Assembly (NCBI GenBank): GCA_039621445.1
Contig: CP154954.1
Span: 30,632,395 to 30,696,394, forward strand
Direction of reading: 5' to 3'
DNA length: 64,000 nucleotides
From: Euglena gracilis
Lineage: Eukaryota
Shown: positions 9,732-64,000 of the stretch, piece by piece
Position numbering within the stretch: position 1 is the stretch's first letter
Layout of the letters: each line of letters opens with the position of its first letter
Made by a program: the position numbers and the translations under genes
The notes under the pieces: model-generated
What the model was told of the DNA's origin: nothing
The model's input: the letters and a program-made list of their open reading frames with translations, nothing else
Databases searched by the model: none

Positions 9732-10008
9732 GAGGTCGCTGAGCTGATGGTGGGGAGTTGGGCTGTGGCAGGTTTGTATGCAAAATGGGAACACTTGAAC
9801 ATTTCCCTTCCCTCCAGAAGTAACGAGTCCGATTCAAAGATCTGGGGGGCTGATCCAAAGAATGTTTTTCACCACACCCTGAATCAGCCATAAAATCCTT
9901 GTACAGCCCAGGTTTTTGAATCAGAAATGTTTGCACTGTTTTCCTCACAGGGGGGAGAGACACGGCCATGTGCAGCCCCCCCCTTCTCACACTGCCCCTG
10001 GCCCCCTC

Positions 10009-13711: not shown

Positions 13712-13724
13712 CCTCTGCTTACCA
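13712..13724 (-). promoter_or_regulatory. Primer binding site of B
   Basis: TGGTAAGCAGAGG directly after the LTR-terminal CA; resembles an initiator-Met tRNA PBS with one extra A. Confidence 0.85.
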
Positions 13725-14821
13725 TGTTTCACACCCGTGCTGCCATGTCCCACGGCAGTACTGGGGTGAAGCGGATACCCCCGCCCCGGGCCAGTTTCCG
13801 GCGTAGGATCGTTTTTTGGCCCCTCGAGCCGACTTGTGTCGGAAATTTTTTCCCATTCTGCACCCCCCTGTGGCCGAAACTGGGCCATCATTTACAAGGA
13901 GAAACTTCCCAGTGGACCCTCCCCGACCCCTGAGGGGGGTGCCACTGAGATCTACAAGGGGGGTGACTTTGGGGTTTCAACCCGTCCCTGCTCAGTTGAA
14001 CCGGTGAGAGCCAACACCCCCCCTGGGTGTCATTTCTCACAGTTTCTGGGCCAAAAAGGGGGTTTTGGGGTGACATTTGGCCAGTGGTTGCCTGAGTTGA
14101 AGAGTCCCACCCCCGTGCCCCTTTTCCCACAGATGAGGTGGGGGGAAGACAAACCTCACCTTCTTCAAATGATTGATTGTTCTCAATTGGACTTTCCATT
14201 TGCAAATGTAATTCCATCACTTGAATTCACAATGATAATTGTTTGTAATTGCAACAATTGACAAGGCCAAGGGGTAAAAAGAGGAAAACCCTGTGAGAGG
14301 AAAATGATTTTAATGCCCCTGATGGGCAGTTAAAATTAGGATTGAGTGCGCTGATTCCTAAGCGCTCTCAGATCCCAAATCCTAGCCCATTGCACCAAAA
14401 TCAACCAACCCAAGTCAAAATCAAGGTTTCCACCCTTGATTTTGATAAATTATGCTGAATTCCATCATTATTGAGCTTTGCAAACCCCTGAAAAAGCTCC
14501 AGGAACTCAGGCGCCAATCTGTTAAAATTTCGTTCCAAGCGCTTGCAAGTGCTCTCACCAAATCCAACATTTTCCCTTAAAACCAAAGGAAAAATGCAGA
14601 AAAGGCTCAAAAACATGCTAAATAGACCCAAAATCACCCTTTGGGAATACCTAGCATCACTCAATCTCTCTCCTTGCACAACCAAACCATGGGCGCCTTA
14701 GGAGAGGGAATTTTAATTGAAATCTTTAGAAAGCCTTAAAATTAGAGCTAAACCGCCCTTACAAAGGCCTTCTAAAAAGAAAAAACTCCGCCGCCCGGCG
14801 GTCGACCTCAAAAGGTCGTCA
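13725..14821 (-). repeat. 5' LTR of element B
   Basis: TG...CA termini; copy of 1774-2870. Confidence 0.95.
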
Positions 14822-17800: not shown

Positions 17801-20380
17801 GTCAGCAGTCTCCGCGCGTTTCTCGGTGTCTGCAATTACTATGCGGGCTACGTGAGACTGTACGCGGAGCTGGCGGCGTCGTTTCAGGAGAAGCTGAAGT
17901 TGCCGAGGGAGCTGACCAAGGCGGGATCCAAGCACCCAGTGGTGTGGACGGAGCAGGAGAAGGAGGCGTTCGACAAGCTGAAGAAGGCCCTCATCGCCGA
18001 CCTGGAGCTGTACCACATCGATCCAGCCAAGCCGTTCGTCCTGCGCACCGACGCGTCGGACTACGCCATCGGAGCGGTGCTGGAGCAGTTCCCGAAGATC
18101 GACGGCGTGCCGCGGGTGGAGGACCTGCGGCCAGGGGCCTCCGTCTCGGTGGCCTTCATGTCCCGGAAGCTCACCGAGGGGCAGCGTCTTCGGTGGGATG
18201 TCCGGGACAAGGAGACGTATGCCGTGGTGGCCGCCCTCGACGAGTGGGCGGGCTTCCTGCTGGGCAACGAGATCCTCGGCCTGACCGACCACCGCAACCT
18301 GGAGTCGTGGTACAAGGAGTACGTCGCCGGAGTGGGCCCGCAGGGGAGGCGGGCCAGATGGCATGCGAAGCTCATTGAGTTCCGCATCACCGTGGTGCAC
18401 GTCCCCGGCGAGACCAACGTGGTGGGCGATGCCATGTCCCGCTGGGCCTACCCGGCCTCACAAGGCTGGCGTGACACCTCGTGGCACGGCACCGAGGCCG
18501 ACACAAAGGAGATGAAGGCCCACATCCTGGAGGAGAAGCTGCGCGAGAAGTCCACCCCAAAGGCGGTGCATCCCGAGGACGAGGAGACCAAGGCGGAGCA
18601 GGTGGAGAGGTCAACCCTGAAGGAGGGGAGAGAGCTGGCCGTCATCCAGCTGATCCGGCTCCAGTCGTTAGCCGCGGTTCCGTCAGCGTCCCACGTCGCT
18701 GTCACCACGCGCAGCCGCCTCGACACGCAGCGCAACGCCCGAGACGCCCCAGCAGACGCCCTGCACGATACGCGATCCGAGCATCCACGCGAGATGCACC
18801 CGTCAGCCTCGTCTCCCGCGAGCGCAGCAGTCCCACAGTCGGCATCGTCTGCGGCAGTCACACCGTCTGCGTCGTGCATCGCATCACCAGCGTCCGTGCC
18901 AGCACCATCGTCCAACGCGCCATCGCCAGCCCCATCACCAGCACCGCAGTCCACCGCACCGCAGTCCATCGCACTGCCCGCGGCGCCCACAGCCGGTGTG
19001 TCATCACCGGCCATGCCCGTCCCAGCGTCCGCAGCCGGTGTGCCGTCACTGGCCGCGTCAGTCCCGTCTGCAGCACCCGCAGCAGGTGTGCCGTCAACCG
19101 CTGATCCCGTGCCCCCGCAGCCTGACCAGGACATCAACGTCTTCGACATGGACTGGAGCAAGGCGTATGCGGTGTGCCCGCGCTGGAAGCCCGTCTGGGA
19201 CCAGGCCCACAACGGCCCGGGCTGGCCCAGCGGGTTCCAGCCGGTGGATGGGCGGCTCGTCTCGGCGGGGAGGTGGTGTGTGCCGAGCGGGCTGCTGGCG
19301 GAGGTGCTGAGGGAGCAGCACTCGGTCTCCGGCCACATTGGCGGGGACCGGCTGGTGGAGGAGGCCGAGCGCACCTACGTCTTCGCGGACCGGATGGAGG
19401 CGGCGAAGGTGGCCGGCGGGCTGCCGCGGACGTGCCCGGTGTGCCAGGCCACCGAGCACCCGCACCAGCCGCTGCGGCTGAAGGTCTGCCCGACGCCCGT
19501 CCCGCCGTACGTCATGGCGTCGGTGGCCATCGACCTCTTCGTGATGCCGGAGGTGGACTTCGAGGGGCAGCTGTACAACGTGTTCGCCGCCTGCGTCGAT
19601 CGCCACAGTGGGTGGGTCGTGGCCACGGCCCACCACACGCGCGGCCTCACCGCCGCCACCGTGGCCAAGGCGATGTACCGGGGGTGGTGGTCGCCGTACG
19701 GGCTGCCCAGGGTGATCACGAGTGATCGCGGGCCGCATTTTGCTTGTGCGTGGTGGCGCAGCATGTGCGGCCTGCACGGCATCCACCACGCCTACGCCCA
19801 GGCGTACCACCACGCGGCGAACGGGCGGGCGGAGTCCCTCCGTGCGCAGCTGCAGAAGCGGATCCGGAGCGAGAAGGCCGAGGCCCCGATCACCTGGGTG
19901 GAGTCCCTGCCCAGGGCAGTGCAGAAGCTGAACGACTCCAAGGCGCAGCACGGCCTGAGTCCGTACGAGGTGCTGTATGGACGGCATCGGGGGACTGGTG
20001 GCGTACCGTACAAGGCCCCGGTCATGGTGGAGGATGCCGTGTCGTTCTTCGAGAGACAGAAGGCCGTGGACCAGAAGGTCGCCGAACCGGAGCAGGAAGG
20101 ACCTCGAGGAGTTCGCCAAGGGAGACCTCGTCTGGTACCTCCGGCCCCCGAGGCGGCCGGGCCAGAAGCTCGAGAGCTACTGGATTGGCCCAGCCCGGCT
20201 CACCGCGCGCCGTGGCGAGCACTCGTACGAGCTGGAGCTGGAGGAGGGCCGCCGCCAAGAGGCCCACCGCTGCCAGCTGAAGGCCTGCCGCGATGACACG
20301 CGGTTGTGGGGCCCGCCTAAGATGTTCGCCTACCGGCAAGCCAGACCGCAGGAAGACGTGCACATCCGGGAGTGGACGGC
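14822..20380 (+). pseudogene. pol: pol of element A: C5-MTase-PR-RT-RH-INT (scattered stops, truncated at the chromodomain start)
   Basis: FIDTGAQ, IDLRDAFHQ, YFDD, TDASDYAIG, HSVSGH..CPVC, ITSDRGPHF, ANGRAE, WIGP. Confidence 0.95.
15331..15930 (+). pseudogene. DNA cytosine-C5 methyltransferase domain of A
   Basis: WALDLFCGAGS, ASPPCTEYS, LENPR, YRKPTRFW; one in-frame TGA at 15428. Confidence 0.9.
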
Positions 20381-21260
20381 CAGCCAGGCCCCCCCAGGGG
20401 GAACCGAAGCCACCCCCCCCCCCAGGGGGAACCGAAGCCAGCCAGTCCCCCCCACCCAGGGGGAACCGAAGCACCCCCCCCCCAGGGGAACCGAAGCCAG
20501 CCAGGCCCCCCCCAGGGGGAACCGAAGCCCCCCCCCCCCCCCCCCCAGGGGGAACCGAAACCAGCCAGCCCCCCCCCCAGGGGGAACCTAAGCAAGCCCC
20601 CCCCCCAGGGGGCACCGAACAGCCAAAGCCCCCAGGGGGCACCAGCAAGACGAGAGGCCCCAGAGGGACACCGAGCCAAGGCCCCCCAGAGGGCCACCGA
20701 GAGGCCCCAGAGGACCACCGAGCCAGGACCCCCCCCCAGGGGGCCCCAGAGGCACCCGAGCCAGGACCCCCCTCCCGGGGGCCCAGAGGCCACAAACCCA
20801 AGACCGCCCCCCCCCGGGGGCCCAGAGGCCACCAACCAAGGCCGCCCCCCCCCAGGGGGCCCAGAGATCACGACCAAAGACCCCCCACACACCAAGGCAG
20901 AAGACCCCACGGGGACCCCCCGGGCAAAAAAACAGCCCCCCGGACCCCCCCGAACAAAACAAAAAAAAAGCCCCCCGGACCCCCCCCGAAAAAAAAAGCG
21001 CCCCCCCAAGGGGCGCCCACACCCACCGGAGCCCCAGAGCGCTAAGCGAGAACCGAAGAGGGCGCAAGGAGCACCCCCCCCCCAGAGCGCCACAGGAGAA
21101 CCGAGCAAGCGCAAGGGAGAGAAAGGCACGCCCACCCCCCGCCCAGCCAGCCGAAGGAAGCCAGGCAGGGGGCAAATGAGGCGAGCCGAAGAGACCCCCC
21201 AGGCACCAGAAAGACCCAAGGGAGCCCAAGGTACCGCCCCCCCCCCCAACCAGCCGGGGA
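20380..21260 (+). repeat. GC-rich degenerate minisatellite
   Basis: Units like ccccccagggggaaccgaagcc(agccagg) with variable homopolymer lengths. Confidence 0.9.
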
Positions 21261-29319: not shown

Positions 29320-30950
29320 TCGAAAACTGTACTTGACATTCCTGACCCGTACAAACCATATGTACTGTAGGTCGACAGCGGCGACTATGCTGTCAGCGGT
29401 TTGTTGAGTCAAAATTCCTCGTCCAATTAACTGCGCCCTGTAGCATTATTCATCAGAAAGCTACAAGGTGAAAACGGCAAAGGATAATTCATATGGAGCA
29501 TACGAGAAAAGAAGACGCATGCCATTCTCCTTAGCCTACGAAAACTCCGAAGTTGGGTGGGCAGTTCTCTGGTACAAATACTAGTGTTGACAGACCGTGA
29601 GTCTCTCCAACACAGGTACACTGAAGAACTTGAGCAAAACCATGTCCTCATTTGGCCGAAGATGCCGTTGTCACGAATTTTTGAGTCAATTCAACCTGGT
29701 GGTAGCTTACACACCAGGTCACACTCAAGAAAGAGCGGACCAACTTTCCCGAGCACCTTGACACATTCGCAAGGCGCGCAGATGCTGCTAATGACCTACT
29801 AAACAAATAGCCTGTTTCGAGGCTTTTGTTGTGGACGCCGATAGCCTCCGTACGGGGAAGTATCATTCCGAAAAATCAAACGTAAAGGCGTGAAGGTGGC
29901 ATTCTCAACCATTTCACCATTACGAAGTCTTTGTAGGACATCATTGTAAAAATGATCCTTGGAATAATCCCATTCGCGAAAAATAGAGTGGACGTTGATT
30001 CGGATCACATGACTCGGCGGTGCCCCGGCATTCTGCCGCGTTGCTGGCAAATACTGCAAACCCTGTGACCTGGTTGATGACTTAATTTTATGTTATCACG
30101 ACCAAGGTCACCCTGGTGCACCCAAACTGCTTTCCTTGGAGAGACTTAGTTACTATACAACACTGACAGGAAAAAAAATTGTACAAGCGCTGTTTGCAAA
30201 TTGTGCAAAGGTGTCAAATTTGTCAAGCTGTTAAACCGCGCAGAGGTACCCCCCCCTGGTACGATGGTCTTCTTCCCTGTACCAAACGACATTTTACACC
30301 CCCCAGCATATATTTTATGAAATTAGAAAATTGCAAAGGGTCAGATGACAAAAATTTACGATTACGTTATTGTTGTCACCTGTCGGCTAAGTGGGTGCAT
30401 CGTAGCCATTCCTTGCCAGAAAGCAGGGTTGACAGCACAAGTTTTTGCAGAAATGTTTTTAGAATACTGCATTTGCCTGATGTGTTTACTGAATTAAATC
30501 GTCAGTGACCAAGCATATTATTCCTTTCTGAGAAGCCACAACTCTTTGTGGCTTCCTCGGAATTGAGCTGCACTTTTCTATGATTTACTGTCCAGAAGGC
30601 AAAAGTCGCGTGGAAGCGGCAGAGAAAGCCGCAGTGAACATGCTACGACTTTCACTCGCCGAAACGCACAAAGCCTGGCTACAAGTATTGCCCTTTTGTT
30701 TATTTAACACTAACGCTTTACCGGGTTTGATATTACAATAATAACCATAAAAAATCGTCTTCGGACGAGAACCTCCAGCCATTGGCGACATCCAGACAGA
30801 ACGACCTGCTCGTTCTAGCGTGTTTTGCGAAACATGGTTCTCTAAAGTTTTATCACTTCGCACGTATGTGCAAAAGCGTGTACACGCTATAAACTCACAA
30901 AAAATTTCACAAGGCTGAAAACTCTGAAAAAAACGAAACAACATTCAAAT
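29320..30950 (+). pseudogene. Decayed Gypsy RNase H-integrase (element J)
   Basis: IPDPYKPYVL*VDSGDYAVSG, VLTDRESL, HDQGHPG, CQICQAVK, GKSRVEAAEK. Confidence 0.8.
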
Positions 30951-37559: not shown

Positions 37560-39830
37560 CCAAAACATCTAATTCACGAAAAAAGTTCCATGGAGGGAAA
37601 TGGGGAGACAACCCCCTACACCAACGTTTGCAAAAAAGCCTGAAATGGTGGACAAAACAGGCTCCCCAAGCAATATGTTAACTCATCAGGGATGGAATTT
37701 AAACCCGCTCGGTTCACCCGGCAAAACTGGCAACACCTACCCAAAAAACCAGAGCAAATTTGGTCCTGAAACAGGCAGAAAAGACTATGCAGGACTACAA
37801 AAGAACTAGGTCACAGAATGTGAATTCAAACTCCAAACATCTCATACCGTGCCTTTTGGTTTCGAAACCAGAAGGGGGACAACCAAAGTGGAGGTTGATA
37901 AGCGACTGCAGGGAACTAAATCAACAGCTGGATCACATCCAGAATATTTTTCCTGTTTTAAAAAAAGGCTACTAGGCAGCCAAAATCGACTGAAAGGATG
38001 CCTATTTTCACATCCCAGTGAGCCAGGCCCTAAAGCCTTTTTTAAACCATCAGTTGGGGGGGGTGACATGGGAATTCGAGGCAGGCTTTTTGGCCCGAAC
38101 GTAATGCGCCAAATCTTCATGGGGGTCATGAAAACCTTCGAAAAACGTTGGAGAAAACGGGCCATTCAGGTATTCATATACCTGGACTACATTTTGCTGG
38201 TGAGCCCCACTGAGAACAATAACCAAAAAAATCTCATCACAGTGGTCAGAGATTTTCTGAAAGCAGTGTTCAAAATCAATGTCAAAAAGTCAACCCTACA
38301 GCCCACCCAAGTTTAAATCCTCTTGGGTTTCAACTCAACTTCCAAGAAGAGAAATTACAAGTGCTCCCCAGAAAGTAAAGACAATAAAGAAGGAGCTGGG
38401 AAAAATTGAGAAAAAAGCGTTCATGTCAAAAAGACAACTGGCTGCCATTTTGGGTGAGATTAAGTGCAATCTGATGGCCCTGCCCTTTTTAAGAGCTTTT
38501 ACATATTCCATTGCAAATGTTTTGGTGGCAAATTCCACATCCCCCTGGGATTCAAAACATCCCTTTAAAGGAACAAAATGCCCAATTGAGGGGAATAAAA
38601 AATTATACTGGACGCCTGGGGGGTAAGACCCTTCCCCCAAAGTGCAGCCATTGAGTTACACTCAGACACCAGCACCAATGCCTGGGGGGGGCTGGACATC
38701 CAAACAGGCAAAATTATGCAAGAATTCTGGAGATAAGACTCCGTTTTGCACATAAACCTAAATAGCAGACCCCATAAGAAGGTGGAAGATGGATAGTGGG
38801 GATTAATCTTTAGACCCCCAGTTTTTCCAATGGCTAAAACAACAGTTCAAAGAATTTATAAACGTGGAAACATACTTGTTTTCCTCCCCAGGAAACAAAA
38901 AATTACCAACGTTGTGGCCAGATGGTCACATTGGGAAACTTCAGGGGTGGATGCACTGTAATGTCCACTGGACAATCTAGGGGGATTGTCTGCGAACCCC
39001 CCTGGGGAATTATTCAAACATTTCTCCCCAGATAGAAAGAATTCCCACAGACCAAAGTTTTGACGGTCACCCTTTTTTGGGATTCAGCCGACTGGTGGCC
39101 CCAATTAATCAAAATGAAAGTGCAAGGGACCCCTGCTTCAAAATAACCCCTAACAGGGTTATGTTCACCAACTGCAAGGAGATGAAAAGTCCGCCCCCCA
39201 GGTGGCCCCTACTTTGCGTGATTTGCGCAGTCAAACTTTGAAGGGGAAAACGGAACAGTACTCGACCATTAACGATTTTGTGGGGTGAAATCCTGGCTTA
39301 AAGCACCATCAAAGCGCCTGCTGACTTTTATGGGATATTTGGACAAAATGGGGATACCATCCCTCAAGCCACCACAAACCAAGTGGCTGACGCTTTAATG
39401 CAATTATTCAAATTATCCAAGGCTTAGGCCCGTAATGTACACAGTTCTATGCTTTTGATCCCAGTGTTTGGTGGACTGAGATTCCTTTCGCTTTTGTCCC
39501 TGTATAAAAAACTTTGGAACCAAAATCTTGAAAAATAGGGAGCATTCTGGGTTCCCCTCCCAATCGTCTGGGGGAAGGCCAAAGCCCCTTTCCCCACTAA
39601 AAAATATACATTGCGTACACATGATATTTTTCTGCTCACGAGTCTTCTGTCTGTACAGATCTTCTGATTTGGCACAAATCAAACGCAGCACAAGTGCGTT
39701 GGGCATGGCGCCCCCCCCTTAGAAATTAGGCGTGAAGGCAAGAAATTCCACACGTGGGGAAGGGTTGTGTCCATAGCCAGTGTCCCCAGATCAGTCCCTT
39801 TCATTTAATGCTTTCATATTTTTCCTCCAA
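37560..39830 (+). mobile_element. Decayed DIRS-like element G (RT/RH/N6A-MTase/YR start)
   Basis: WRLISDCRELN, FIYLDYILL, LFSSPGNKKL, ANPP, RVFCLYRSSDL. Confidence 0.85.
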
Positions 39831-42987: not shown

Positions 42988-45704
42988 TATTCAGGTTCCG
43001 CACCCCTCCCCCAGGTCGTAATTGAGAATCGGCTGGAAAATTTTGAGAAGAATTTGGCTGAAGAAAATGCCAGAGCACAGGCAGAACTTTTGCAATTCAT
43101 CCATGAAAATTTGGAGAAACGAACGGCTGAAATGTGCAGCCAGTTTGAACACGAAAAGCAAAAAAGTCAGGAGCAAATTCAGCAATCAGTCAGCCAATTT
43201 ATTTTACGGTGCCAGCAGGGGGGGGGGGTGCAGTGGAAAACATTGCAAACTGCCACGAACAACTTTTGGGGAACGGAGTTCAAAGGCAGATCGAAGGAAA
43301 ATTTCATGATTTTGAGAAAAAGTTACGAGATTTTCTGGGCAGTGAACTAGCACAACTTGAGAGCTGTGGAAACGATGTCCAAAACAAATTGTTTGCACCA
43401 GGTGGGTTGGTCGAACAAGTTGGAATTTGTTTGCATTCTGTTGAGCAAATTAAGTCAGATTTTCAGAAGGAAATTTTGGCAATTCGACAAGCAAATCGTG
43501 AGCTATGCTCTGGGCTGGACAAAAAATTTGCTGAAACTGCTGCTGGGCTGAAAATTGTGGGGAGGAATCAAAGTCAAGTTTTGGGACCTTAACCCAGGAA
43601 ATTCAGCAGCGATTTGACGCATTAAAAAACGAGAGCAAAGCTCTGGGGAGCAGGGTCGCAGCAGTTGAGAAATTTCTGGGAAGCCAGGTTAAGGTGCCTT
43701 GGGATAAGGTGGTTGAAGTGCTGGGAAAATCAGAAGAAACAATTCAATTGGAAGTTCGGAGGGAAATGGCAACCCAGGTCAGAAAAATGATGGAAATTAT
43801 GATGGTGCAAATGATGGATGAAAAGCTGAGGCAAACGCAATGGAAGAAAATTTTGAAAAATTGCAAACTGACATTGAAAGTCGACTGAAACAGCAATTTT
43901 TCACAGTTTCGATGAACATGCAGACATATTTTCAGCGTGAAAAGAGTTAACGGGAGGGTTTGCAAAAACTGTGTCAAACTTTGCAGACTCGTATGTAAAG
44001 CATGGAGGGGAGGGTTCAGGAAATTTCAGCCAAAAAACACAGCAAATTGACCCCAAGGCACCTAAAGGGGCTCAGCCCAAGTCAACAAATCAGCCGAATT
44101 CTGGGATTTTTGGCATTAAGGGGGTGACACCGGCTCAATCATCTGGTTCAGGTTAAGGGGGTGACCCCAATGATGCCATGTGAAATCTGGGATGTTGATC
44201 TGGGCGGGTGCAGACCATCAAGTAGTTCACAGGGGGGTGCATTTGCAATAAATCAGGTTAGTGGCATTTGTGCCATTGGGGGGGCACCCCAGCGACCCCC
44301 AGTCATAAGCGTTGGTAACCCAGCGGTGCAGCATGTGTTGAGAAATTCGACTGCACCAAAATTTTCAGGGAAATCTCAAGATTGGCAGCAATTTTCTGAG
44401 GATTGGCAAGCATTTTCACGAAAACTGAACTCTGCAGGGGGGGAAGTGAGTGAAGATTTGAAAGTTGCTCTGTTGGAGGATTGTCTTGATGAAACGAGCA
44501 AAAAAATTCCGAAGCTCCATCTAAAGGAAGGGGGGATCAATTTTAATGCCGGGTGGGGTCGCCTGGAAACGACTTTTTCGCAGAATCAGGAGTCTGGGGC
44601 AAGGCAAAATTGGCAGCAGGTGAGCCTTTTTTATACGGGCAAAGTAGCCCTTGAGCACTGGCTTGAATTTCAGGCAAATTTCAAGATGGCCAAGTGCAAG
44701 GTTAAGGATGCCGGGGAGGGGGAAGCAAAACGACTTTTGTTGCAGAAACTTCCTTTTTTCATCCTGAAATGGGTTTCAGATGAGGAGGAAAGGAGGCTGA
44801 ATAATCAGCCAACTTTACGCCTGAAGGTGCCAGGGAATAGGAATTCAGAAATGGTTTCGCAAAGTTTGGGGAGAATACTTGGGAAAAGACCAACAAAAGT
44901 GTCGGAAATTCACGAGGGGGAATTTGAAATCAATTTCCCTGACATTTATGCCTATGAAAAAGTCAAAAGTTTTCATGAAAAAGAGTTTGACGATTCAAAA
45001 GTTTTGTTTCAGGTTCAGGAAATTGAACCGGTTTGACCACCGAGGATATTTTCAACCTCGTGAAAACAAAGTTGACACTCAGAAACAAGCATGACGCCTT
45101 ACAAAGTTCTGTTTCATTCCCAGGCTATCAAGGGTTTAGGCGTTCAAGGTCGGTGGGTGCTGAAAATAGAGGGGGGAGGCAATCGGGGAGTCGGAAGAGT
45201 TCACCTGGGTCAACCCCGGGTAGGGCAACGACACCTCCCCCAGCCAGAAGCAGATCACAAATCAGCGAAACAGCAAAACCTGATCAATCTGTTGCGGTTT
45301 CATCTTCAAATGTGCAGCCATCAAGCAATTCTTCAAGGCTTTCAACGGTGGAGAACCCACCCAATGTGCAAAGACCCGTAGTGGGGGGGACACAATGGAT
45401 CCCACCCCACTCACAACCAACAATGCTGTATGTTGCTAGACAAGGTCCGTGGAATAGAAACAATTTTCAGTCGTATGGCAAGGGCAGCCAATGGAAAGGG
45501 GGGAACAATTCCCAAGGATATGGGGCTAATAACTCCCAATGGTATGCGGGTAACCAACAGGGGTACAAGGGGAAGGGTGGTAAGGGAAGGGGGAGAGGCA
45601 AAGGTTATGACCAGAATTTTAGTGCCAAAGTGGGGAAGGGCAAAAACAATAACTTACACCAACGGTTTAGGGACGCCAGGGTAGAAAATTTCAGGGGTTT
45701 ATGA
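42988..45704 (+). pseudogene. gag: gag of element C
   Basis: Coiled coil, PKFSGKSQDWQQF...EAKRLLLQKLP homologous to B gag, GKG-rich tail. Confidence 0.85.
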
Positions 45705-46066
45705 CCCCGGGCAGTGAAAACCACAACCCAGCTTCTAAACCCGACCCTTCCACCCGTAACCTCCAATCCACCAATCATCTTACCACAAACGAAATGACCG
45801 GGAGCTGAGCTTGGAGTGAAGTCAAATGGGCTGGCCGAGCCCAGCATGATGGATTGAGGGAGCGAGAAACCAAGACCCCCCGGAGCCAAGGAGAGCAGGC
45901 ACGGCCCGGAGGCGGGCGAAGGAGGTATGAGGGGGAAGCAAATCTCCTCCCATTCCTTTCGCGTGCACATCCCTCCCCATTCCACATGCCAAGCCAACAC
46001 TATTATGATTTTTTGAGCGAGAATAGGCGGGCCTCAAACAAAAAGTAGGCCAGAAAATTTCCCAGG

Positions 46067-46665
46067 GCATTTGACCTCTTTTCTGGGAAAAATTCAGTGG
46101 GAAATTAATTGTGAGAAAAGGGTTATGAGGTGATTTTGGTGGACATCAACCCAGGTTTTCACCCAACCCATCCCGTGGACATCCTAGAGTGGGAGTATCG
46201 TGTATACCCCCCTGGATATTTCCAAGTCATAACGGCTAGTGTGCCTTGCACGGAGTATAGCCGTGATAAGACAGTGGGAGAAAGAAATTTGGAGTGGGAA
46301 GACCAAATTGTGACAAAAACTTTGGAAATTGTCGAATATTTTCAGCCCAATTTATGGTGGATTGAAAATCCCCGAACGGGACTTTTTCCAAAAAGGCATT
46401 GTGTGCGAAAATTCAATTTCATCGATGTGGATTATTGTCAATTTTCAGATTGTGGATATCAAAAGCCTACCCGCATTTGGGGGAGTGAAAATCTGTTGAG
46501 TTTGAAGGACAAACTTTGTGATGGGAAAACCTGCCCCCATTTGATTGTCAGTGAGGGGGGTGGTTTAGTACTCAAAGAACAATTGGGAAGAAACGGAATG
46601 AGGGTGAGCACTCAACAAAAATGGAGGGTACCTGAAAAAATGGTCATGTACCTTCTTTCGGCCCT
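46067..46665 (+). pseudogene. DNA cytosine-C5 methyltransferase domain of C
   Basis: AFDLFSG, TASVPCTEYS, IENPRTG, YQKPTRIW; two stops in the N-terminal part. Confidence 0.88.
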
Positions 46666-46689
46666 TGATTTTAAGGAGGAAAAGTTTTC

Positions 46690-47040
46690 CTTTAAGCATG
46701 AAGATTATGCCGTTCGGAATTCATTTGTGCAAATGATTGAGGAGAAATGTAAAAGGAGGGCCGAGGTGGATTGTTTTGCTTCTACCCAAAATTCTCAGTG
46801 CACATCATATTTGACCGAGAAGGGAAATGCTTTGGCGGTACCATGGGGAGGGGGGGGGTACGGTTTGGTTAAAACCCCCCTGGACATTGTGGCCAAAGGT
46901 GGCAATGAAGTTGCAAAAGGACCCTTGTGATGCCACTTGCATCTTACCTGATTGGAGCAAAGGTTGGGTAAGGGAACTTGTTCAGAAGGCACCAAAAAAA
47001 GTTGTATTTTCCACCCGGAACCAAGCTTTTTGAGGTGGAT
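46690..47040 (+). pseudogene. Dam-like DNA N6-adenine methyltransferase domain of C
   Basis: EDY...VDCFASTQNSQC...NALAVPW, then a frameshift in a G-run, then VWLKPPW...CILPDW..W. Colinear with the DIRS MTases in this window. Confidence 0.75.
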
Positions 47041-47057
47041 GGGAAATCAATGGGGGG

Positions 47058-50000
47058 GTGCGAGGTGTGGGAGTTTGGGCCTTGTTGATAGAGGGTAATA
47101 AGCCCCCCGCCAACACCAGCAACCCCAAGAAACCAAAGGCGGTACATTTGAAATCGCGGATGGTTAAAAAGAGATACCCACCCACAGGGAGTGAGACATT
47201 TTTGAAGGACCCACAAATTTTGATTCGGACAAGGGTTGTTTTAGGGAACGGGGAGGAACAAAATATGGACATTTTGGTGGACACCGGTGCCGAGGCTAAC
47301 CTCATAAGACAAGGGTTAGTGAGTGAGCACCTAATGTATTCGGCCGAACACCCCTTGAGGTTTGAAACCGCTAGCAGTCAAGCCTTGAGTGGTGGGGGGA
47401 GGTGCACTAAGGTGGTGATGAAGTTGCAAGGGGAGGTGAGTGATAACACCCCACCCACAGATTTTGAGTACGATGTGGAAATTTATGAAGCCAATATCAA
47501 AGTGGACGCAATTTTATCATACCCATGGCTTGTATGCACAAAAATCGGAATTTTTCCACATCACCTTGCTTTGGTAGTGGAGGAACCCGAATTGACATTT
47601 TTGTTCGGTGTGAGAGATCATAGGAGAAAACGGCAAGGAAAGGTCCCTTGCACCCTTCCCCAAGGGGGGGAGGTGACAAATTTGGAAAAGTTTGGCTTTC
47701 ACCTTCCGATGGAGGGTTTTGATCAAAGGGGACAAACCTTGGATGGGCGCTCACTCAAAATTTTGGGCAAGAATTTGGAAATGGCAAATGAAAACCACCT
47801 ACCTATTCGCAAAATGATCATTGCAAGGGAGGGGAGGGGAATAATGAAACGGAATCCGAAGAGGAAGAGAGAATAAGGAAGCTAAGAGAGGAAATTTTTG
47901 GAAGGTATGATGGAACCGTATTTCGGTCAAAGGTACAACCCGACCCACCCGTAAGAGGACTATGTGGTTATGCGTTCATATATTTGCAAGAAGGAGCGCG
48001 GCCCACCCGACAAAAACCATTTTTCATGCACGGGGAACAGAAAGAAGCTTTGGAAAAAATCAATCAAGATTGGATCGATATGAAATTCATCGAGCCAGCC
48101 ACAACAAAAAAATCAGAATGGCTCTCACAAACATTCCCTGTGCCCAAAAAGTCAGCCGATTTTCCTTGGAGGGGGGTTGTTGACATGAGGGGGCCCAACA
48201 GCCAATCCCGTAGGTGCAACTACCCTCTTCCGAAAATCGAAGACATCCTGGTGAGGCATGGCGCAAACCAAACGTTCTCCATTTTGGACTTAAAACAAGC
48301 CTTTCACCAACAGCCGCTTCACCCGGAGAGTAGGCCTATAACTTGCTCCTTCACACCAAAGGGTCTTTACCAATGGAGGGTGAATGTAATGGGGTTAACT
48401 AACGCCTCACAACAATTCCAACAAATGATGGATGACCGTTTAGCACCCGTAAGGGATATTGCTACCCCATACACTGATGACATTTTGGTAGGGACTACCG
48501 TCGGGGAGGTGGAGGATCTCCTCGAAGCACACAAAAGGGATTTGTGTAGAGTGTTGAATTTACTCGCCGAGGAAGTTTTTGTAGTGGACCCCAAAAAAGC
48601 GGAATTATTCATCAAGGAAGTGGAATTTTGTGACCAGATTTTGGGGCATGGCACGCGTCGGCCGGCCCCCGGCAAATTACGTGCCATTGAGAAATGGGAG
48701 GTTCCTACAACCATAACGGCCTTAAGGGCTTTCCTCGGTTTCAAAAATTATTACAACACCTACATACACATGTATGCCCAAGTTGCGGCACCTTTGCAAG
48801 ATAAGTTGAAGGTTTCTAGGGAGGAAGGCAAGAAAGGGAGCAAAAAATGGGTTGTCTTCAGGGAGGTTGAACACAAAGCATTTGAGGAGCTAAAGAAACG
48901 GTTGTGTTCCGGTTTAATTCTTCAAAGGGTAGACCCCGATAAACCCTTTGCTTTGAGACATGATGCAAGTGGGTATGCCGTAGGAGCAACTTTAGAACAA
49001 CTAAAAGAAGGAAACGGTACGCCCACACCCCAATATATTTTAGACAAAAGAACGGTGCCTGTTGCTTTTATGTCCCGAAAACTCACCGAGGGGCAAAGAA
49101 AATGGACCTCCCGGGAATTGGAGACATATGCCATAATTTTGGCACTGCAAAAATGGGAGAGTTGGATCGGTCTCAAACCCATTTTGGTGTTGACCGACCA
49201 CCAAAGTTTGGAGGCATGGACAAAGGAAGTGCCCGACACCTCAAATGGACCGGTGGGGAGGAGGGCACGATGACACCAAATTTTCTCAAAATACGATTTG
49301 GCAGTGGGGTAAATTCCGGGGAAGGAAAACACTATTGCCGACATTTTAAGTCGGTGGGCGTACCCCGCTTCGCAAGCTCTAAGGGACATTAGTAAACATG
49401 GTTCGGCCGAAGATAAGAGGGAACTGGAGGAGCTCATAAGAGAGGAGAGGGAAGATGAGAAAAATTGCTTGTTGTTCAAATTCAAAAATCAGCCTAACGC
49501 TCGTAACGTGTGGACAAGGGGGCTGGTAACCCGCAGTGGAAAAGAGGTGGCACCCAATTTTGTGGATGATGCATCAGGGAGTGGTACCGAGAGTGTAGAA
49601 AGTCCGGGAAGAATAAACACCACCGAATACACTCACTCACAAGGGCCTAGGAATTTTGGTTCGAAAAAGGGTAAGAGGAGAGTTACCTTCTGGGATGGAG
49701 TGGACCCTGTGGGAAATTTGGTGACTAGCCCAAAACTTCCAACTAATGAGTTACCGAGGGGGGTGACGGAAGAAGGTGTGGGCACACCAACTCCAAGTGC
49801 AACCCCCAAGCTAACAAAATCAGTTTGGGACAGAGATTTGGTAGTTGCGTATACCGAATGCCCCACTTGGAAGGAAATTTGGCTAGCAACTCAAAATGAC
49901 GGTTAGTGGCCAAAAGGTGTGAAAGTTCACAAGGACCGTATTTTTTTTGAGGAGAGGTTGTGTGTCCCATTTTCTTTTCAGGAATTCATTGTACAAGAGG

Positions 50001-50530
50001 TTCATGAATTCTTGGGACACGTTGGTCCGGAAAAGGTGTGGAATTTCATCATTTTGCGGTACGCATGGGCTGATGAAAAAAGGGCACGTGTTTTCAATGA
50101 AAGTTGTTCCAAAAATTGTGTCACGTGCCAAGCAAGTTCAAGGGGGGAGACTTTGAAGGGGCCCGTAGATTCAACACTCATTCCAGTGGCACCCATGGTG
50201 AGTGTGGCCTTAGATCTTTTCAAAATGCCATTGGTAAAGTATGAGGGGAAAGTTACAATACCATGGCGGTGTGTGTTGACCGGCACTCCGGTTGGATCGT
50301 GGACATACCATTTTTAGAAAAAGGATTAACGGGTGCAAAATTGGCAAAGGCAATGCTCAAACACTGGAGGCTTTTGGGGATTCCTTCAATCATTTCTAGT
50401 GACCAAGGGAGTCATTTCGTGAACACATGGTGGCAAACCATGTGCTCATTTTTGGGAATTCAGCAAGCTTTTTCTCAAGCCTACCACCACCAAGCCAACG
50501 GGCGGGTGGAAAGGGCGGGGCAACAAGTCA
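47058..50530 (+). pseudogene. pol: PR-RT-RH-INT of element C (truncated in integrase)
   Basis: LVDTGAEANL, LDLKQAFHQ, YTDD, DASGYAVG, HEFLGH..CVTC, SSDQGSHF, QANGRVER. Confidence 0.95.
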
Positions 50531-50567
50531 TGGCCCTGGCACGGGGGAGGGGTGCGGCCCTGAACAA

Positions 50568-55929: not shown

Positions 55930-56320
55930 CCCCCCTGCAGTTGGTGAACATGCGTAGGGGGTGATTTTCAGACAGGGGTCCCTGGAACTTTCATTTTTAT
56001 TAATTGGGGCCACCAGGTGGCTGAATCCCAGTAGGGGGTGACCATCAAAACTTTGGTCTGGGGAAACGTTTTTAACCTGGGTAGAAATTGTTGAATTATT
56101 GACCAGGGGGGGTTTGCATAAAAATCCCCCATGTTGTCCAGTGGACATTGTAATGCATTTACTGCTGTGGCATCCCAGTGGGCCCACCTGGCCACAAAAT
56201 TGGGCAGTTTTTTGTTGCCTGGGGAGGCAAACAAATCTGTTTCCAGACTTGTGAAATTTTTGAACTGTTGTTTGAGCTATTGAAAAAGTTGGGGGTCTAA
56301 AGAATAATCCCCCCTGTCCA
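55930..56320 (-). pseudogene. N6-adenine methyltransferase of F
   Basis: DLFASPGNKKL, NALQCP, FYANPPW, VTPYWDSATWWP. Confidence 0.88.
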
Positions 56321-60420: not shown

Positions 60421-62898
60421 TCATCCGTCTTCTTGGTCTCGATCTCCTTCGTCTCCTCCATCACCTTCATCATCGTCTCCAGAATCATCACCTTCTCGAC
60501 ATACATCTCCGTCCTCGGTGTTCTGCCACATCCACTCCTCTGGTGGCTCCTCCCAGGACAGCCCAAACTCCTTCTCCTTCTCCTTCTCGATCTCCACGGC
60601 GTGGCAGATGGCGATGTGGGCTTCCTCCGGGAACCTCGAGAGGTACTTCATGATGTCCTCCTTGATGTCGTGTTCGACGAAGTACGACACGATCGGGGAG
60701 GCGTACCGGTGGAAGAAGTGCCTCAGCGGCTCCCACGTCTTGTCCTCGTACCCCAGCCACTTGACGAGGAACGCGAGGTCGCCGTTGGCATCGCGCCTGT
60801 GGGTGACCACCGCCTCCACCTCCCAATCGTCCAGCCGGGAACCCTCCTCCGGCCTGGATTGGCGGAAGTGGAAGAGGCGGAGCGGTGGCCCCATGAGGGC
60901 TGGATCGTGGCGGTAGCTCTTGATTTGGGATCGGTGGGCCACCTGCTTCCGGCCATCCTCCATCTGGAGCACGTACGTGTGCTCACTGGTGCGCTCTGCC
61001 ACCACACACGGCCCGATCCAGTACGTCTCCAGCTTCTCGCCGGTGCGGGTGCGCGGGCGGAGGTACCAGACCTTGTCGTTCAGCTCCGGCAGCTCCTTCC
61101 TCCGCTTGTTGACCGTCTCGGCTGTCTTGGCGTGCTCCTCGTTCAAGATCTTCGCGACACGATGATCGATGTCCTGCATGCGCTCGAAGAAGGCCACCGC
61201 GTCCTCGGCCCTCGTGGGCGGCTGGTACGGCACCCCGCCGTACCACCGCTCGCGGCCGAAGAACACCTGGAAGGGGGTCAGGCCGCTGGGCCCAGCACTG
61301 TCGTGCAGGGTTCGCAGGGCTCGCGGCAGCGCCTCCGGCCACGCCACGCCCTCCGCCGCCTTCATCTTCCTCAGCCGCTTCTGGATCTGCGCGCCGAGGA
61401 CCTCCGCACGGGCGTTGCCCTCGTGGTGGTATGCTTGGGAGAAGGCATGGCGCACCCCCAGTCTTGCGCACATTGCCCTCCACCAGGCCCCCACGAAGTG
61501 GGGGCCCCGGTCCGACGTGATGACGCTTGGCACGCCGAACTGCGCCCACTGCTCATACATCGCCTTCGCCACCGCCACCGCCGTTAGCCCGCGGGTGTGG
61601 TGCACGGTGGCGATCGCCCAGCCGGAGTACCGATCAATGCAAGCTGCGAACACATTCACCAGCCTGCCGCCCTCCACCTCCACCTCCGGCATCTGGAACA
61701 GATACACGCTCACCGAACACATCACATGGGGCGGCACTGGCGTAGGAGAGATGCGGAGCCGGAAGGGTTGGTGGGGGTGCTCTGACGCCTGGCAGAACTC
61801 GCACACAGCCAGAATCTTGCCCGCCAGCTCGCGTGCTCGGGAGGGCACCGCAAACTGGAAGTTCCGGCTGGCCTCATCGAGGAGGCGCTCACCACCGACG
61901 TGCCCCGACGCCCGGTGCTGCTCTCGGATGCTGTTTTTCTTATCCGCCACCAACCGATCCGCCTCCAGCGCCCGCAGGGTCTCCCGCAGATCCGCCGCGT
62001 GCCGCCGGATCAGCTCCTCGTCCGTCCACCCCGGCAGCCGCCTCGTGCTCACCAGGATGTCGTCGAAGTAGGGGTGGGTGTAGGCGGAGACGTTGTGGCA
62101 GGTCGCGTCGATGTCCCTCTGGAGCAGCGCCGGCCCGACGTTGATGCCCTGGGGCACCACGGTCCACTGCCAGAGGCCGCCGGGCAGGTGGATGTTGGTG
62201 ATGGGCCGGCTTTCCTCCGCCATGGCCACCTGGTGGAAGGCGTCCCGCAGGTCCACCGTCGAGAAGATCTCACAATTCGCCTGCTCGCTCACGATGTCCT
62301 CCGTCAGCGGTAGGAGGTAGGAGTCCATCTGCAGCATCTTGTTGGTCAAGCTGTAGTCGCACACCAGCCTCCACTTGCCCGACTTCTTGCGGATGGGGAA
62401 GGCGGCCGCCCTCCACGGCCCCCGCCCCGCCTCCAGCTTGCCGTCCGCCAGGCACTCCCGCTCCATCTCCCTCAGGGCCTCCAGCCGCTCGCCCTTGAGG
62501 TTGATGATCCGGCCCACCACTGGGATTGCCCCCGGCTTCAGCCTCAACACCGCCTTCCCATGGGTGCCCCGCGCCTGGGGGCACGGCCACACCCGCTCAC
62601 GGAACACCCGGCCTTCGAACTCGTTGATGATCTCGTCCCGCAGCTGCCGCGCCAAGGGATGGCCGACGTCGTCTTCTGTCTCCACCACCCCTCGCACCGC
62701 CTTCGCCGCTTCTTCGGCCTCCTTCAGCATCATCGCCACTTCTCGGAATGCTGCCTCGTCCGTGGTCAGCTGCCGCATCTTCTTCACCGTGGAGAGGTAG
62801 CCGTCCAGCTCGTCTTCGTCTTCATTGCCATCTTCCTCCTTCTTCTCTTCGTCTCCACGCCGCCTCAGGATCCACTTGGGGTCCGCGTGGAGCTGCAA
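60421..62898 (-). pseudogene. pol: RT-integrase-chromodomain fusion ORF lacking RNase H
   Basis: YFDD...ADKKNS|IREQH junction, ITSDRGPHF, WEVEAVVTHRR..LVKWLGYEDKTWEP. Confidence 0.9.
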
Positions 62899-63389
62899 GG
62901 TGTCGGGTCACGGCTGCACATCCAGCCGGTTCTCCCGGAGCCACGGATACCGCCAGAATGAGGTCCGTGCTGATGCAGCCGTTGTACGCCACCACCTTCG
63001 TCGTCCACGTCCTCGGTCTCCGCTCCTCGTCGTCGGTCTGGGCCGCGAACGACAGCTTCAGCTCTGCTTCTCGTTGTCCTCCGGGTAGCGCCTCTCCACT
63101 CACCGTGCGTAGCACCAAGGGTCTCGCCGCCGCGTGGAACACCGACTCCGGGAACAACTCCTTCTTCACCAGAGAGGTCTGCGCCGCCGTATCGATCAAG
63201 GCCTTCGCCTGGATCTTCATCCCGCCTGCCTCCACCTCCACATCCATCAGCAGCTGGTAGCACCCCCCACGGTGCTCCATCCGGCCGACCGTGAACGGCC
63301 GGTTCGGGAGGTGCTGCCACGGCCGCACCACCACCTTCTGCACCTTCTTCGCCGCCTCCGCCGCCGCCACTTCTTCCCGTGCCTTCTCC

Positions 63390-64000
63390 CCCAGGCACAG
63401 GTACCGCACCACCCCCTCCGGGATGCGGTAGGCTTCCGCCCTCGTGCACCTGCGCTCGCCGCCACTGCCTCCCAGCTGCAGCCGATGTCGTCGTACGCCG
63501 TCTGGTCCTTCCACCATGCTGCCGCACTTTCCACCACAGATGACGTCGTCCAGCTCCTTCGCCATCGCGTTGCTGACCCAGAAGCGGGTCGGCTTGCGAT
63601 ACCCGTACTCCGCGAAGCGGCAGTAGTCCACATCCACGTACCGCACTCCGCGCAGGACTCGTCGCCACCGCAGCAAGCCGAACCTCGGGTTTTCAATCCA
63701 CCACCGCGTAGGCGCCAAGTACTGCACCAGCTCCCTCGTGGCCTTCACCACCGCGTCCGCCATGCGGAGCCTCCTCTTGCGGGTGGTGAGGGCTGTGGAG
63801 TACTCTTTACAGGGCGGGGACGCCGCGATGACCTCGAAGTGGCCAGGAGCGTACTGCTCCCAGTACCTCCACTTCCTCACGTCGGCCACGATGTCCGGCT
63901 TCCTCTTCTCATCCCAGTCCACGCTGATCACCTTGAAGCCCATCTTCTTCAGCGCTCTTCTCACACTTCCCGTTCCGGAGAACAGGTCCAGCGCCCATCT
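63390..64000 (-). CDS. DNA cytosine-C5 methyltransferase domain of D (open frame, fused to protease)
   Basis: WALDLFSGTGS, ASPPCKEYS, IENPR, YRKPTRFW; in frame with LIDTAAQ. Confidence 0.9.

What the first reader, a model, noticed from the sequence alone, without database searches (positions are those of the whole stretch)
46067..47300. Gypsy retrotransposon with tandem 5mC and 6mA methyltransferase domains
Seen: between gag and the protease, element C has a C5-MTase (DLFSG/PC/ENP). In the same frame follows a second domain with DxFAS..N, NAL..PW, W(L)KPPW and LPDW. This matches the NPPW-type MTases of the DIRS elements in this window. The related element B lacks it. Known: this Dam-like domain is typical of DIRS elements and phages, and C5-MTase retrotransposons are described. 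I know of no LTR element with both. Inference: the ancestor could write two DNA marks, on its cDNA or at target sites, possibly after capturing the domain from a DIRS. This copy is decayed (KPPW instead of NPPW, frameshift in a G-run).
Basis: partly seen in the sequence, partly recalled or inferred. Interest (0 to 1): 0.92.

Follow-up and report, generated by a model that had tools for sequence, protein, structure and literature searches.

The report
Dead gypsy retrotransposon with two methyltransferases
This is a broken copy of a gypsy-type jumping gene whose protein carries both a cytosine and an adenine DNA-methyltransferase domain, a real family feature that a 2026 preprint has already described as "EpiLTRs".

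Summary
In one reading frame, 46067-46858, a compact C5-cytosine methyltransferase runs straight into a DIRS/phage-type Dam domain, upstream of protease, RT, RNase H and integrase. Read through one break with X, the Dam part passes Pfam's own threshold (PF05869, 33.8 bits against 28.1).

It is not a one-off insertion. Public assemblies hold intact polyproteins of 1763-1911 aa with the order DNMT-Dam-PR-RT-RH-INT-Chromo. They are 53-60% identical over the module, and their NPPW motif is intact and in frame with pol.

Predicted folds agree. The Dam part resembles N6-adenine methyltransferases and the DNMT part resembles DNMT3, M.HhaI and M.HaeIII.

The window copy is dead. It has two stops in the DNMT, three to four frame breaks in the Dam part, KPPW in place of NPPW, and a missing 3' end.

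The idea is no longer unpublished: bioRxiv 10.64898/2026.05.21.726589 describes LTR elements with Dam, DNMT and a chromodomain in Euglena gracilis and Cymbomonas. The closest named relative here is an E. gracilis transcript (77% identity).

Methylating activity is inferred, not shown. That preprint found no 6mA from eukaryotic Dam domains expressed in E. coli.

The parts
44128..45704 (+). Upstream gag-like ORFs of element C (putative gag; no Pfam family)
   Evidence: Open frames. The frame 44128-45033 is 30% identical (E 2e-22) to the region upstream of the DNMT in element B, 10800-11441 on the minus strand. No Pfam hit.
46067..46657 (+). Compact C5-cytosine DNA methyltransferase domain, about 197 aa. 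DLFSG at 46073-87, PC at 46244-49, ENP at 46364-72, QKPTR further on. Two in-frame stops at 46106-08 and 46112-14.
   Evidence: 59% identity to P0006 over 261 residues. Pfam PF00145 scores 14.9-16 bits here, below the cut-off, but 25-29 bits, above it, in relatives P0005, P0007, P0008, P0010, P0011 and P0032. The fold of the in-window paralogue matches DNMT3A/B, M.HaeIII and M.HhaI.
46658..47095 (+). Dam-type (PF05869, DIRS/phage-like) N6-adenine methyltransferase-like domain. DCFAS at 46769-83, KPPW at 46872-83 (relatives have NPPW), LPDW at 46944-55, WALLI at 47076-90.
   Evidence: Pfam Dam E 3.5e-8, 33.8 bits against 28.1, on the read-through P0004. Family-profile hits on three frame pieces. 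Fold of a relative's domain: pLDDT 97.4, Z 9.5 to T4 Dam and 10.8 to CAPAM.
46847..46858 (+). Frame break 1, in a run of G
   Evidence: The frame changes from 46115-46858 to 46860 onwards. Laid contigs part from the window at 46854-57 (table 7).
46994..47000 (+). Frame break 2, in a run of A. The TGA at 47031 of the old frame is therefore not in the true frame.
   Evidence: The piece 46972-47085 in the third frame fits profile positions 108-136 (E 3e-6). Laid contigs differ in length by one base at 46994 (table 4).
47052..47070 (+). Frame break 3, in a run of G, and probably a fourth near 47067-68. After these the frame of the protease resumes.
   Evidence: My reading against relatives. Some laid contigs differ in length by one base at 47058, 47067 and 47068 (table 4).
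47100..47876 (+). Linker and aspartic protease (DTGA at 47280-91)
   Evidence: Weak Pfam protease hits. tblastn to P0006 residues 337-661.
47792..49273 (+). Reverse transcriptase and RNase H
   Evidence: Pfam RVT_1 E 1.8e-16 and RT_RNaseH E 1.5e-21. 81% identity to P0006 and 77% to P0235.
49907..50544 (+). Integrase zinc finger and catalytic core, cut off at about 50544. The C-terminal third and the chromodomain are missing.
   Evidence: Pfam Integrase_H2C2 and rve. tblastn stops at P0006 residue 1557 of 1804.

Best explanation
Element C (about 44.1-50.5 kb, plus strand) is a decayed, 3'-truncated copy of a chromovirus-like Ty3/gypsy family. Its polyprotein begins with a two-enzyme module placed before PR-RT-RH-INT-Chromo: a compact C5-cytosine DNA methyltransferase fused to a small Dam-type (PF05869) N6-adenine methyltransferase-like domain.

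Shown here:
- the identity of both domains by profile and by fold;
- their fusion in one frame;
- the same order in intact relatives;
- conservation of the catalytic motifs across the family (PC, ENP; D-x-F-A, NPP[WFY]).

Inferred: in living copies the module is made as part of Gag-Pol. It then marks the element's own DNA, either the new cDNA or pre-integration complex, or the DNA around the insertion. The DNMT would lay down 5mC (about 60% likely active, by analogy with the retrotransposon DNMTs shown to methylate CG in de Mendoza et al. 2018). The Dam part would lay down 6mA on cDNA or on an RNA:DNA hybrid (about 35-40% likely a true DNA 6mA writer). The chromodomain would steer integration. 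The likely benefit is that the element fits itself into a host epigenome that uses both marks.

The window copy itself can do none of this.
For: - Pfam Dam above its cut-off on the read-through.
- Seven public proteins (P0005-P0011) with DNMT then Dam then PR in one ORF, three of them running through to the chromodomain. Dam E-values 1e-9 to 5e-13; PF00145 reaches its cut-off of 22 bits in five of the seven (P0006 19.1 and P0009 21.6 fall below).
- 21 of the 50 proteins found with the module hold a Dam part. 19 of 20 long Dam segments have NPP[WFY].
- At least 138 of 148 further representatives found with the Dam profile have the motif.
- On the DNMT tree the window copy lies in a starred clade (SH-aLRT 99) of 8 rows, all DNMT-Dam-PR.
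- Laid contigs of four runs read Asn where this copy has Lys: 25052 of 25052, 15882 of 15882, 7026 of 7074 and 15805 of 15805 depth units.
- Dam model pLDDT 97.4. VIA Z 10.8 to CAPAM, 9.6 to ErmE, 9.5 to T4 Dam, 9.1 to E. coli Dam.
- DNMT model matches DNMT3A/B, M.HaeIII, M.HhaI, MET1 and DNMT1 at E about 1e-7.
- The preprint 10.64898/2026.05.21.726589 (Results and Discussion read) reports the same kind of element and more 6mA on DAM-LTR copies.
Against: - No activity is shown for any member.
- The preprint found no gain of 6mA when eukaryotic Dam domains were expressed in dam- E. coli.
- The Dam domain is small (about 130 aa). Its best structural matches include RNA adenine methyltransferases (CAPAM, Erm, KsgA) as well as DNA Dam. 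The tool notes that Z of 7-8 is common for unrelated models.
- The window copy's own C5 score is below Pfam's cut-off.
- The DNMT fold was made on a paralogue from another element of the window (P0002), not on element C.
- Most relatives are unnamed assembly records, so the host and the number of independent genomes are unknown.
- Some 'no Dam' rows on the tree are fragments.
Confidence: 0.85

Rival explanations
1. The Dam-like domain is not a DNA 6mA writer. It may methylate RNA or the RNA:DNA replication intermediate, or it may be a catalytically silent binding module kept for another role, while only the DNMT writes a DNA mark.
For: - The best structural match is the cap-specific adenosine methyltransferase CAPAM/PCIF1 (Foldseek E 3.5e-4; VIA Z 10.8). 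Erm and KsgA/DIMT1 rRNA adenine methyltransferases follow.
- The preprint's E. coli assays were negative, and its authors suggest an RNA-DNA hybrid substrate (Results read).
Against: - The Pfam family matched is a DNA Dam family.
- T4 Dam (Z 9.5) and E. coli Dam (Z 9.1) score almost as high as CAPAM.
- D-x-F-A and NPP[WFY] are kept in nearly all members, which argues for catalysis of some kind.
- The preprint reports more 6mA on DAM-LTR insertions.
Confidence: 0.3
2. The Dam segment in this copy is a one-off nested fragment of a DIRS element inside a DNMT-gypsy copy, or an assembly chimera, and not part of the element.
For: - DIRS elements with homologous Dam parts lie within 5-10 kb.
- Three other DNMT-gypsy copies in the window lack the Dam part.
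- The preprint itself warns of nested insertions and assembly artefacts in Euglena.
Against: - The same junction (…YLLSAL / …EEKFSFK.EDYAVRN…) and the same order occur in seven intact ORFs from other records.
- The Dam part of C scores 64-68 bits per half against the LTR-family profile. The window's DIRS scores 39 bits.
- The DNMT of C groups with Dam-bearing relatives only.
- Hundreds of short-read contigs of four runs cover the junction region.
Confidence: 0.03
3. Part of the apparent decay is sequencing or assembly error. The frame breaks sit in homopolymer runs, so the real copy may be less broken than the window shows.
For: - Three of the three to four frame breaks in the Dam part lie in runs of 7 or more identical bases.
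- Laid short-read contigs differ in length by one base at 46994 (4178.5 of 4280.2 depth units in X3, 5283.1 of 5403.1 in X5) and in part at 47058.
Against: - Those contigs may come from other copies of a very abundant family.
- In X1 and X2 most depth at 46994 agrees with the window (707 of 10862 and 41 of 5503 differ).
- The two stop codons, Lys for Asn, the 3' truncation and further frame changes at about 47850 and 50246 are not homopolymer errors.
Confidence: 0.25

Closest known systems
EpiLTRs of Euglena gracilis (Fernandez-Moreno et al., bioRxiv 10.64898/2026.05.21.726589, May 2026; abstract, Results and Discussion read; figures and supplements not seen)
   Same: Both are Ty3/gypsy-like LTR elements encoding a Dam-type domain, a C5-DNMT and a chromodomain. 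The nearest named relative of element C is an E. gracilis transcript product, P0235, named EG_transcript_113 by EukProt. It is 77% identical over RT-RH and has the order Dam-PR-RT-RH-INT-Chromo.
   Different: The text gives no domain order for Euglena, so I cannot tell whether the DNMT-Dam-PR order seen here is the one described. The host of the window is not known. This copy is dead and lacks the chromodomain end.
EpiLTRs of Cymbomonas tetramitiformis (same preprint)
   Same: A chromovirus-like element with both a Dam and a DNMT domain.
   Different: There the DNMT is appended to the 3' end of pol. Here it stands at the 5' end, fused to the Dam part before the protease.
Dam (MT) domain of DIRS retrotransposons
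   Same: It is the same Pfam family (PF05869) and has the same motifs, D-x-F-A ... NPPW ... P-x-W. Two DIRS copies in the window carry it.
   Different: DIRS elements use a tyrosine recombinase and carry the domain after RT-RH. Element C has a DDE integrase (rve) and carries the domain before the protease, next to a DNMT.
Retrotransposons with a C5-DNMT only (de Mendoza et al. 2018, Nat Commun 9:1341; search listing and abstract start seen, otherwise known through the preprint's text)
   Same: A retrotransposon polyprotein carrying a cytosine methyltransferase. Three such Dam-less copies lie in this window.
   Different: Those are DNMT3-type domains in dinoflagellate DIRS and LINE elements and in streptophyte LTR elements. 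Here the DNMT is a compact 197-aa form; the preprint places the EpiLTR DNMTs beside DNMT4. Here it is also paired with a Dam part.
Small phage Dam methyltransferases of Pfam PF05869 (recalled: phage T1/HP1 type)
   Same: The match covers profile positions 29-117 of 169, including the NPPY-type motif.
   Different: The retrotransposon domain is shorter, is embedded in a polyprotein, and has W or F in place of Y after NPP. Its activity is unproven.

Membership tests
Ty3/gypsy (Metaviridae), chromovirus-like | Order PR-RT-RH-INT with a DDE integrase | tested here: met
   Pfam RVT_1, RT_RNaseH, Integrase_H2C2 and rve, in that order. Colinear with P0006 residues 76-1557.
Ty3/gypsy (Metaviridae), chromovirus-like | C-terminal chromodomain | tested here: not met
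   The copy ends at P0006 residue 1557 of 1804. Relatives P0006-P0008 have Chromo at E 1e-7 to 2e-9, so the family has it and this copy lost it.
Ty3/gypsy (Metaviridae), chromovirus-like | Flanking long terminal repeats | tested here: not met
   No long direct repeat pair in 38-56 kb. This is expected after a 3' truncation. Element B does have a 99% identical pair, 1774-2073 and 13725-14024.
C5-cytosine DNA methyltransferase (PF00145) | Profile match above the curated cut-off | tested here: inconclusive
   Window copy 14.9-16 bits against 22. Relatives at 53-60% identity score 25.3-29.1 bits.
C5-cytosine DNA methyltransferase (PF00145) | Motifs I (FxGxG), IV (PC) and VI (ENV) | tested here: met
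   DLFSGKNS, SVPCTEYS and IENP. P, C, E, N and P are invariant in 37 aligned sequences. The third glycine of motif I is Asn in this copy.
C5-cytosine DNA methyltransferase (PF00145) | C5-MTase fold | tested here: met
   The model is of the in-window paralogue P0002 (block-mean pLDDT 86-98 over residues 1-170). Foldseek gives DNMT3A at 1.7e-7, M.HaeIII at 4.9e-7 and M.HhaI at 8.5e-7. Element C itself was not folded.
Dam, PF05869 (DIRS/phage-type N6-adenine MTase) | Profile match above the curated cut-off | tested here: met
   33.8 bits against 28.1, E 3.5e-8, on the read-through with X at the break. Relatives score 38.6-49.4 bits.
Dam, PF05869 (DIRS/phage-type N6-adenine MTase) | Catalytic (D/N)PP(Y/F/W) motif | tested here: not met
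   The window copy has KPPW. 19 of 20 relatives have NPP[WFY]. The laid contigs read Asn. So the family meets the feature and this copy does not.
Dam, PF05869 (DIRS/phage-type N6-adenine MTase) | SAM-dependent methyltransferase fold close to adenine-N6 enzymes | tested here: met
   The model is of P0006's domain, pLDDT 97.4. CAPAM Z 10.8, T4 Dam Z 9.5 (rmsd 2.5, 104 aligned), E. coli Dam Z 9.1.
Dam, PF05869 (DIRS/phage-type N6-adenine MTase) | Methylates adenine N6 in DNA | not testable with these tools
   The preprint reports negative E. coli assays for eukaryotic Dam domains (Results read).
EpiLTR (preprint's term) | One LTR element encoding Dam, DNMT and a chromodomain | tested here: met
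   Met at family level by P0006, P0007 and P0008. The window copy keeps Dam and DNMT only.
EpiLTR (preprint's term) | DNMT in the clade sister to DNMT4 | not tested
   No reference DNMT set was at hand. The Atlas lead to small viral cytosine methyltransferases scored 0.87, below the tool's bar.
DIRS retrotransposon | Tyrosine recombinase instead of a DDE integrase, with the MT domain after RT-RH | tested here: not met
   Element C has rve and H2C2 integrase domains, and its Dam part lies before the protease.

The most novel reading that the evidence does not exclude
The Dam-like half of the module is not a classical DNA Dam. It would be an adenine methyltransferase acting on the element's RNA or on the RNA:DNA replication intermediate. 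Paired with a DNA 5mC writer, the two would form one cassette that selection has moved to at least seven different positions in the polyprotein within one host lineage. That would explain the negative E. coli assays and make these elements carriers of a new nucleic-acid-marking step in reverse transcription.
Probability: 0.15. Interest if true: 0.75.

Novelty: new member of a known kind. Interest (0 to 1): 0.4.

Why it matters
Retrotransposons that carry their own writers of two different DNA marks, plus a chromatin reader, show how mobile DNA can adapt to a host's epigenome instead of only being silenced by it.

This window adds three things:
- a concrete locus, with Dam-less sister elements and Dam-bearing DIRS elements side by side;
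- evidence that the DNMT-Dam-PR order recurs in intact public sequences;
- evidence that the two domains occupy many different positions among close relatives.

The central idea is already in a 2026 preprint. If the host is Euglena gracilis, the find is simply one dead copy of a described group.

Tried and rejected
- Whole genome: none is held for this window, so no family census or insertion ages could be made in the host.
- LTRs of element C: none found.
- PDB by sequence with the read-through: 0 matches at E up to 1.
- Word-based search with the Dam region alone: only 6 proteins, no DIRS. A Dam tree against DIRS donors was therefore not built, and the capture-from-DIRS step was not tested for this lineage.
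- The top 150 of the Dam profile search are mostly short fragments without names or context.
The DNMT fold was obtained from whole stored proteins, with an in-window paralogue as the first row, so element C's own DNMT family was not folded.
- Sequencing runs: no RNA holder is listed and organism names are coded. The laid records are short contigs that cannot be assigned to this copy.
- Cluster look-up gave no organism names except one protein filed under Genlisea aurea.
- Rfam: 0 matches. The one tRNA call lies in a C-rich repeat.
- Earlier findings of this scan: none.
- The Atlas gave only sub-threshold leads to small viral cytosine methyltransferases.
- The preprint's figures and supplements could not be seen. 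They may show the Euglena domain order and the DNMT tree.
- Literature search for other prior descriptions found only that preprint.
Full report
**What is there.** The stretch lies in a retroelement-dense window. On the plus strand between about 44.1 and 50.5 kb, Pfam finds aspartic protease (weak), RVT_1, RT_RNaseH, Integrase_H2C2 and rve in the gypsy order.

Upstream of the protease, one frame (46067-46858) reads a C5-methyltransferase. DLFSG is at 46073-87, SVPCTEYS has its PC at 46244-49, and IENP is at 46364-72, followed by QKPTRIWGS. With no stop between, the frame runs on into EEKFSFKHEDYAVRN...EVDCFASTQN...GNALAVPW. After a frame break in a run of G, the next frame reads TVWLKPPWTLW...CILPDWSKGWVRELV.

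**Is it more than chance?** On the unbroken frame alone, Pfam Dam (PF05869) scores E 2.4e-4. I read through the G-run with X, using code 1 with TGA=X and GGGT=X (protein P0004). The match then grows to residues 216-300 against profile positions 29-117 of 169, with E 3.5e-8 and 33.8 bits. This is above the curated cut-off of 28.1.

The C5 domain of this copy stays below Pfam's cut-off (14.9-16 bits against 22). It is 59% identical over 261 residues to a relative, and close relatives pass the cut-off. A PDB search by sequence found nothing.

**Is it a family feature or a one-off?** No genome is held, so I turned to public proteins. A search with the 271-aa frame, restricted to longer proteins, gave 50 hits.

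Seven of them (P0005-P0011) are 53-60% identical over 90-99% of the query. In one ORF they carry DNMT, then Dam, then the protease. P0006, P0007 and P0008 (1804, 1911 and 1763 aa) run on through RT, RNase H, integrase and a chromodomain. In these seven, Dam scores E 1e-9 to 5e-13. PF00145 reaches 25-28 bits in five of them. The motif reads LW(L/I)NPPW in all seven.

A local scan found a Dam part in 21 of the 50 hits. Of the 20 long Dam segments, 19 have NPP[WFY].

On a tree of the DNMT domain (52 rows, quick IQ-TREE), the window copy falls in a starred clade (SH-aLRT 99) of eight rows, all with the order DNMT-Dam-PR.

Contigs of four public runs of one coded organism were laid on 45900-47400. 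Between 590 and 854 short contigs per run fit, of which 135-250 are 99% or more alike, so the family is very abundant there. At 46874, all the depth in three runs, and 7026.5 of 7073.8 in the fourth, reads the base that turns this copy's Lys codon into Asn.

**State of this copy.**
- The DNMT has two in-frame stops, at 46106 and 46112, and Asn in place of the third glycine of motif I.
A third-frame piece (46972-47085) fits the family profile at positions 108-136. So the frame shifts again in the run of A at 46994-47000, and shifts back in or just after the run of G at 47052-58, probably with a further break near 47067-68.
- The TGA at 47031 is therefore out of frame.
- Some laid contigs differ from the window in length by one base at 46994, 47058, 47067 and 47068. 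These may be other copies, or the window may hold homopolymer errors. I cannot tell which.
- Further frame changes lie at about 47850 and 50246. Homology stops at residue 1557 of 1804 of P0006, inside the integrase, so the chromodomain end is gone.
- No LTR pair was found.

**Folds.** The Dam segment of P0006, with 83 relatives as alignment, gave a model of pLDDT 97.4. Foldseek's best PDB matches are the cap-specific adenosine methyltransferase CAPAM (E 3.5e-4) and KsgA/DIMT1. The fuller VIA search gives CAPAM Z 10.8, ErmE 9.6, T4 Dam 9.5 (rmsd 2.5 over 104 residues), E. coli Dam 9.1, and M.TaqI and DpnM 7.5. This is the fold of adenine-N6 methyltransferases, of both RNA and DNA.

For the DNMT I folded the intact in-window paralogue P0002 (62825-64000, minus strand) with 36 relatives. 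Block-mean pLDDT over residues 1-170 is 86-98. They match DNMT3A/B, M.HaeIII, M.HhaI, MET1, DNMT1 and DIM2 at E about 1e-7.

**Surroundings.** Three other DNMT-bearing gypsy copies lie in the window: 4746-9792 (minus), 15284-20390 (plus) and 60640-63994 (minus). In all three the DNMT is followed by the protease with no Dam part.

Element B is a young full-length copy with a 99% identical LTR pair. On the DNMT tree it belongs to a different, Dam-less clade, so it is not a derivative of C.

The minus-strand DIRS at 55971-56276 has DLFAS...NPPW and matches the LTR-family Dam profile at E 6e-11. The plus-strand DIRS is decayed.

**Breadth.** A profile of 11 Dam segments was searched against 1.84 billion representatives. 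It found 12,178 proteins at E up to 0.001 and 130 at up to 1e-30. At least 138 of the 148 new top hits keep NPP[FWY].

Of the 120 best relatives of element C's RT-RH frame, 26 carry both domains, 42 carry the DNMT only, 15 carry Dam only and 37 carry neither; many of these are N-terminally truncated. The 26 show seven different domain orders:

| Domain order | Proteins |
|---|---|
| DNMT-Dam-PR | 8 |
| PR-Dam-DNMT-RT | 5 |
| Dam-DNMT | 4 |
| Dam-PR-DNMT | 4 |
| DNMT-PR-Dam | 3 |
| PR-DNMT-Dam | 1 |
| PR-DNMT-RT-RH-Dam | 1 |

On the DNMT tree the Dam label needs at least three changes forced by starred branches.

**What is known.** Three full-text searches turned up one directly relevant paper, Fernandez-Moreno et al., bioRxiv 10.64898/2026.05.21.726589 (May 2026). 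I read its abstract, Results and Discussion; the figures and supplements were not available.

It reports the following:
- Dam domains occur in non-DIRS LTR elements, by repeated capture from DIRS.
- 'EpiLTRs' with Dam, DNMT and a chromodomain exist in Cymbomonas tetramitiformis, with the DNMT at the 3' end of pol, and in Euglena gracilis, with a different arrangement that the text does not spell out.
- More 6mA is found on DAM-LTR copies.
- Dam domains expressed in dam- E. coli gave no 6mA.

The closest named relative of element C is P0235, which EukProt names EG_transcript_113. It is 77% identical over RT-RH and has the order Dam-PR-RT-RH-INT-Chromo. That naming style is used in E. gracilis papers (listing only). 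The host of the window is therefore probably a euglenid, though I could not show which.

**Verdict.** The copy is dead, activity is inferred only, and the concept is already in a preprint. It is most likely a member of, or close kin to, the Euglena EpiLTRs.

Noticed in passing
window 1774-14024 (minus-strand element B): A full-length DNMT-bearing gypsy element with a 99% identical 300-nt direct repeat pair (1774-2073 and 13725-14024). It has long open frames and no Dam part. Its DNMT is 85% identical to a JGI metagenome protein (P0030). It looks young.
   Followed up: partly
window 15284-20390 (+) and 60640-63994 (-): Two DNMT-chromovirus copies have 66-68% GC and CpG observed/expected of 0.94-0.98. 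Elements C and B show 0.48-0.55 and the two DIRS copies 0.15-0.29. Neighbouring element families thus differ strongly in CpG decay.
   Followed up: no
public relatives (P0005-P0329): DNMT and Dam domains sit at many different places in otherwise colinear polyproteins. There are seven orders among the 26 proteins that carry both. Some proteins have the DNMT or the Dam part between RNase H and integrase.
   Followed up: partly
alignment A3 (DNMT domain; P0002 numbering): C127, C155, C159 and H172 are invariant in 37 sequences. They lie in a short insert where a target-recognition domain would be. This may be a zinc site in a very compact C5-methyltransferase.
   Followed up: no
P0032 (EPS62093.1): A Dam-PR-DNMT-RT fragment of this superfamily is filed as a protein of the carnivorous plant Genlisea aurea. 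It may be protist DNA in that assembly.
   Followed up: no
window 20354-20606 and 3234-3438: These are C-rich tandem repeats of about 30-34 nt and 68 nt (CCCCCCCAGGGGGAACCGAAGCC... type) at the 3' ends of gypsy copies. ARAGORN's single tRNA-Pro call (20504-20585) lies inside one and is probably spurious.
   Followed up: no
window 46847-58, 46994-47000, 47052-58: Frame breaks coincide with homopolymer runs of 7-12 bases. This could be assembly error from long-read data rather than true decay (one search is ambiguous).
   Followed up: partly
window 29344-30921 (+) and 37810-38313 (+): Further decayed retroelement remnants: gypsy RNase H and integrase pieces, and an RVT_1 fragment.
   Followed up: no
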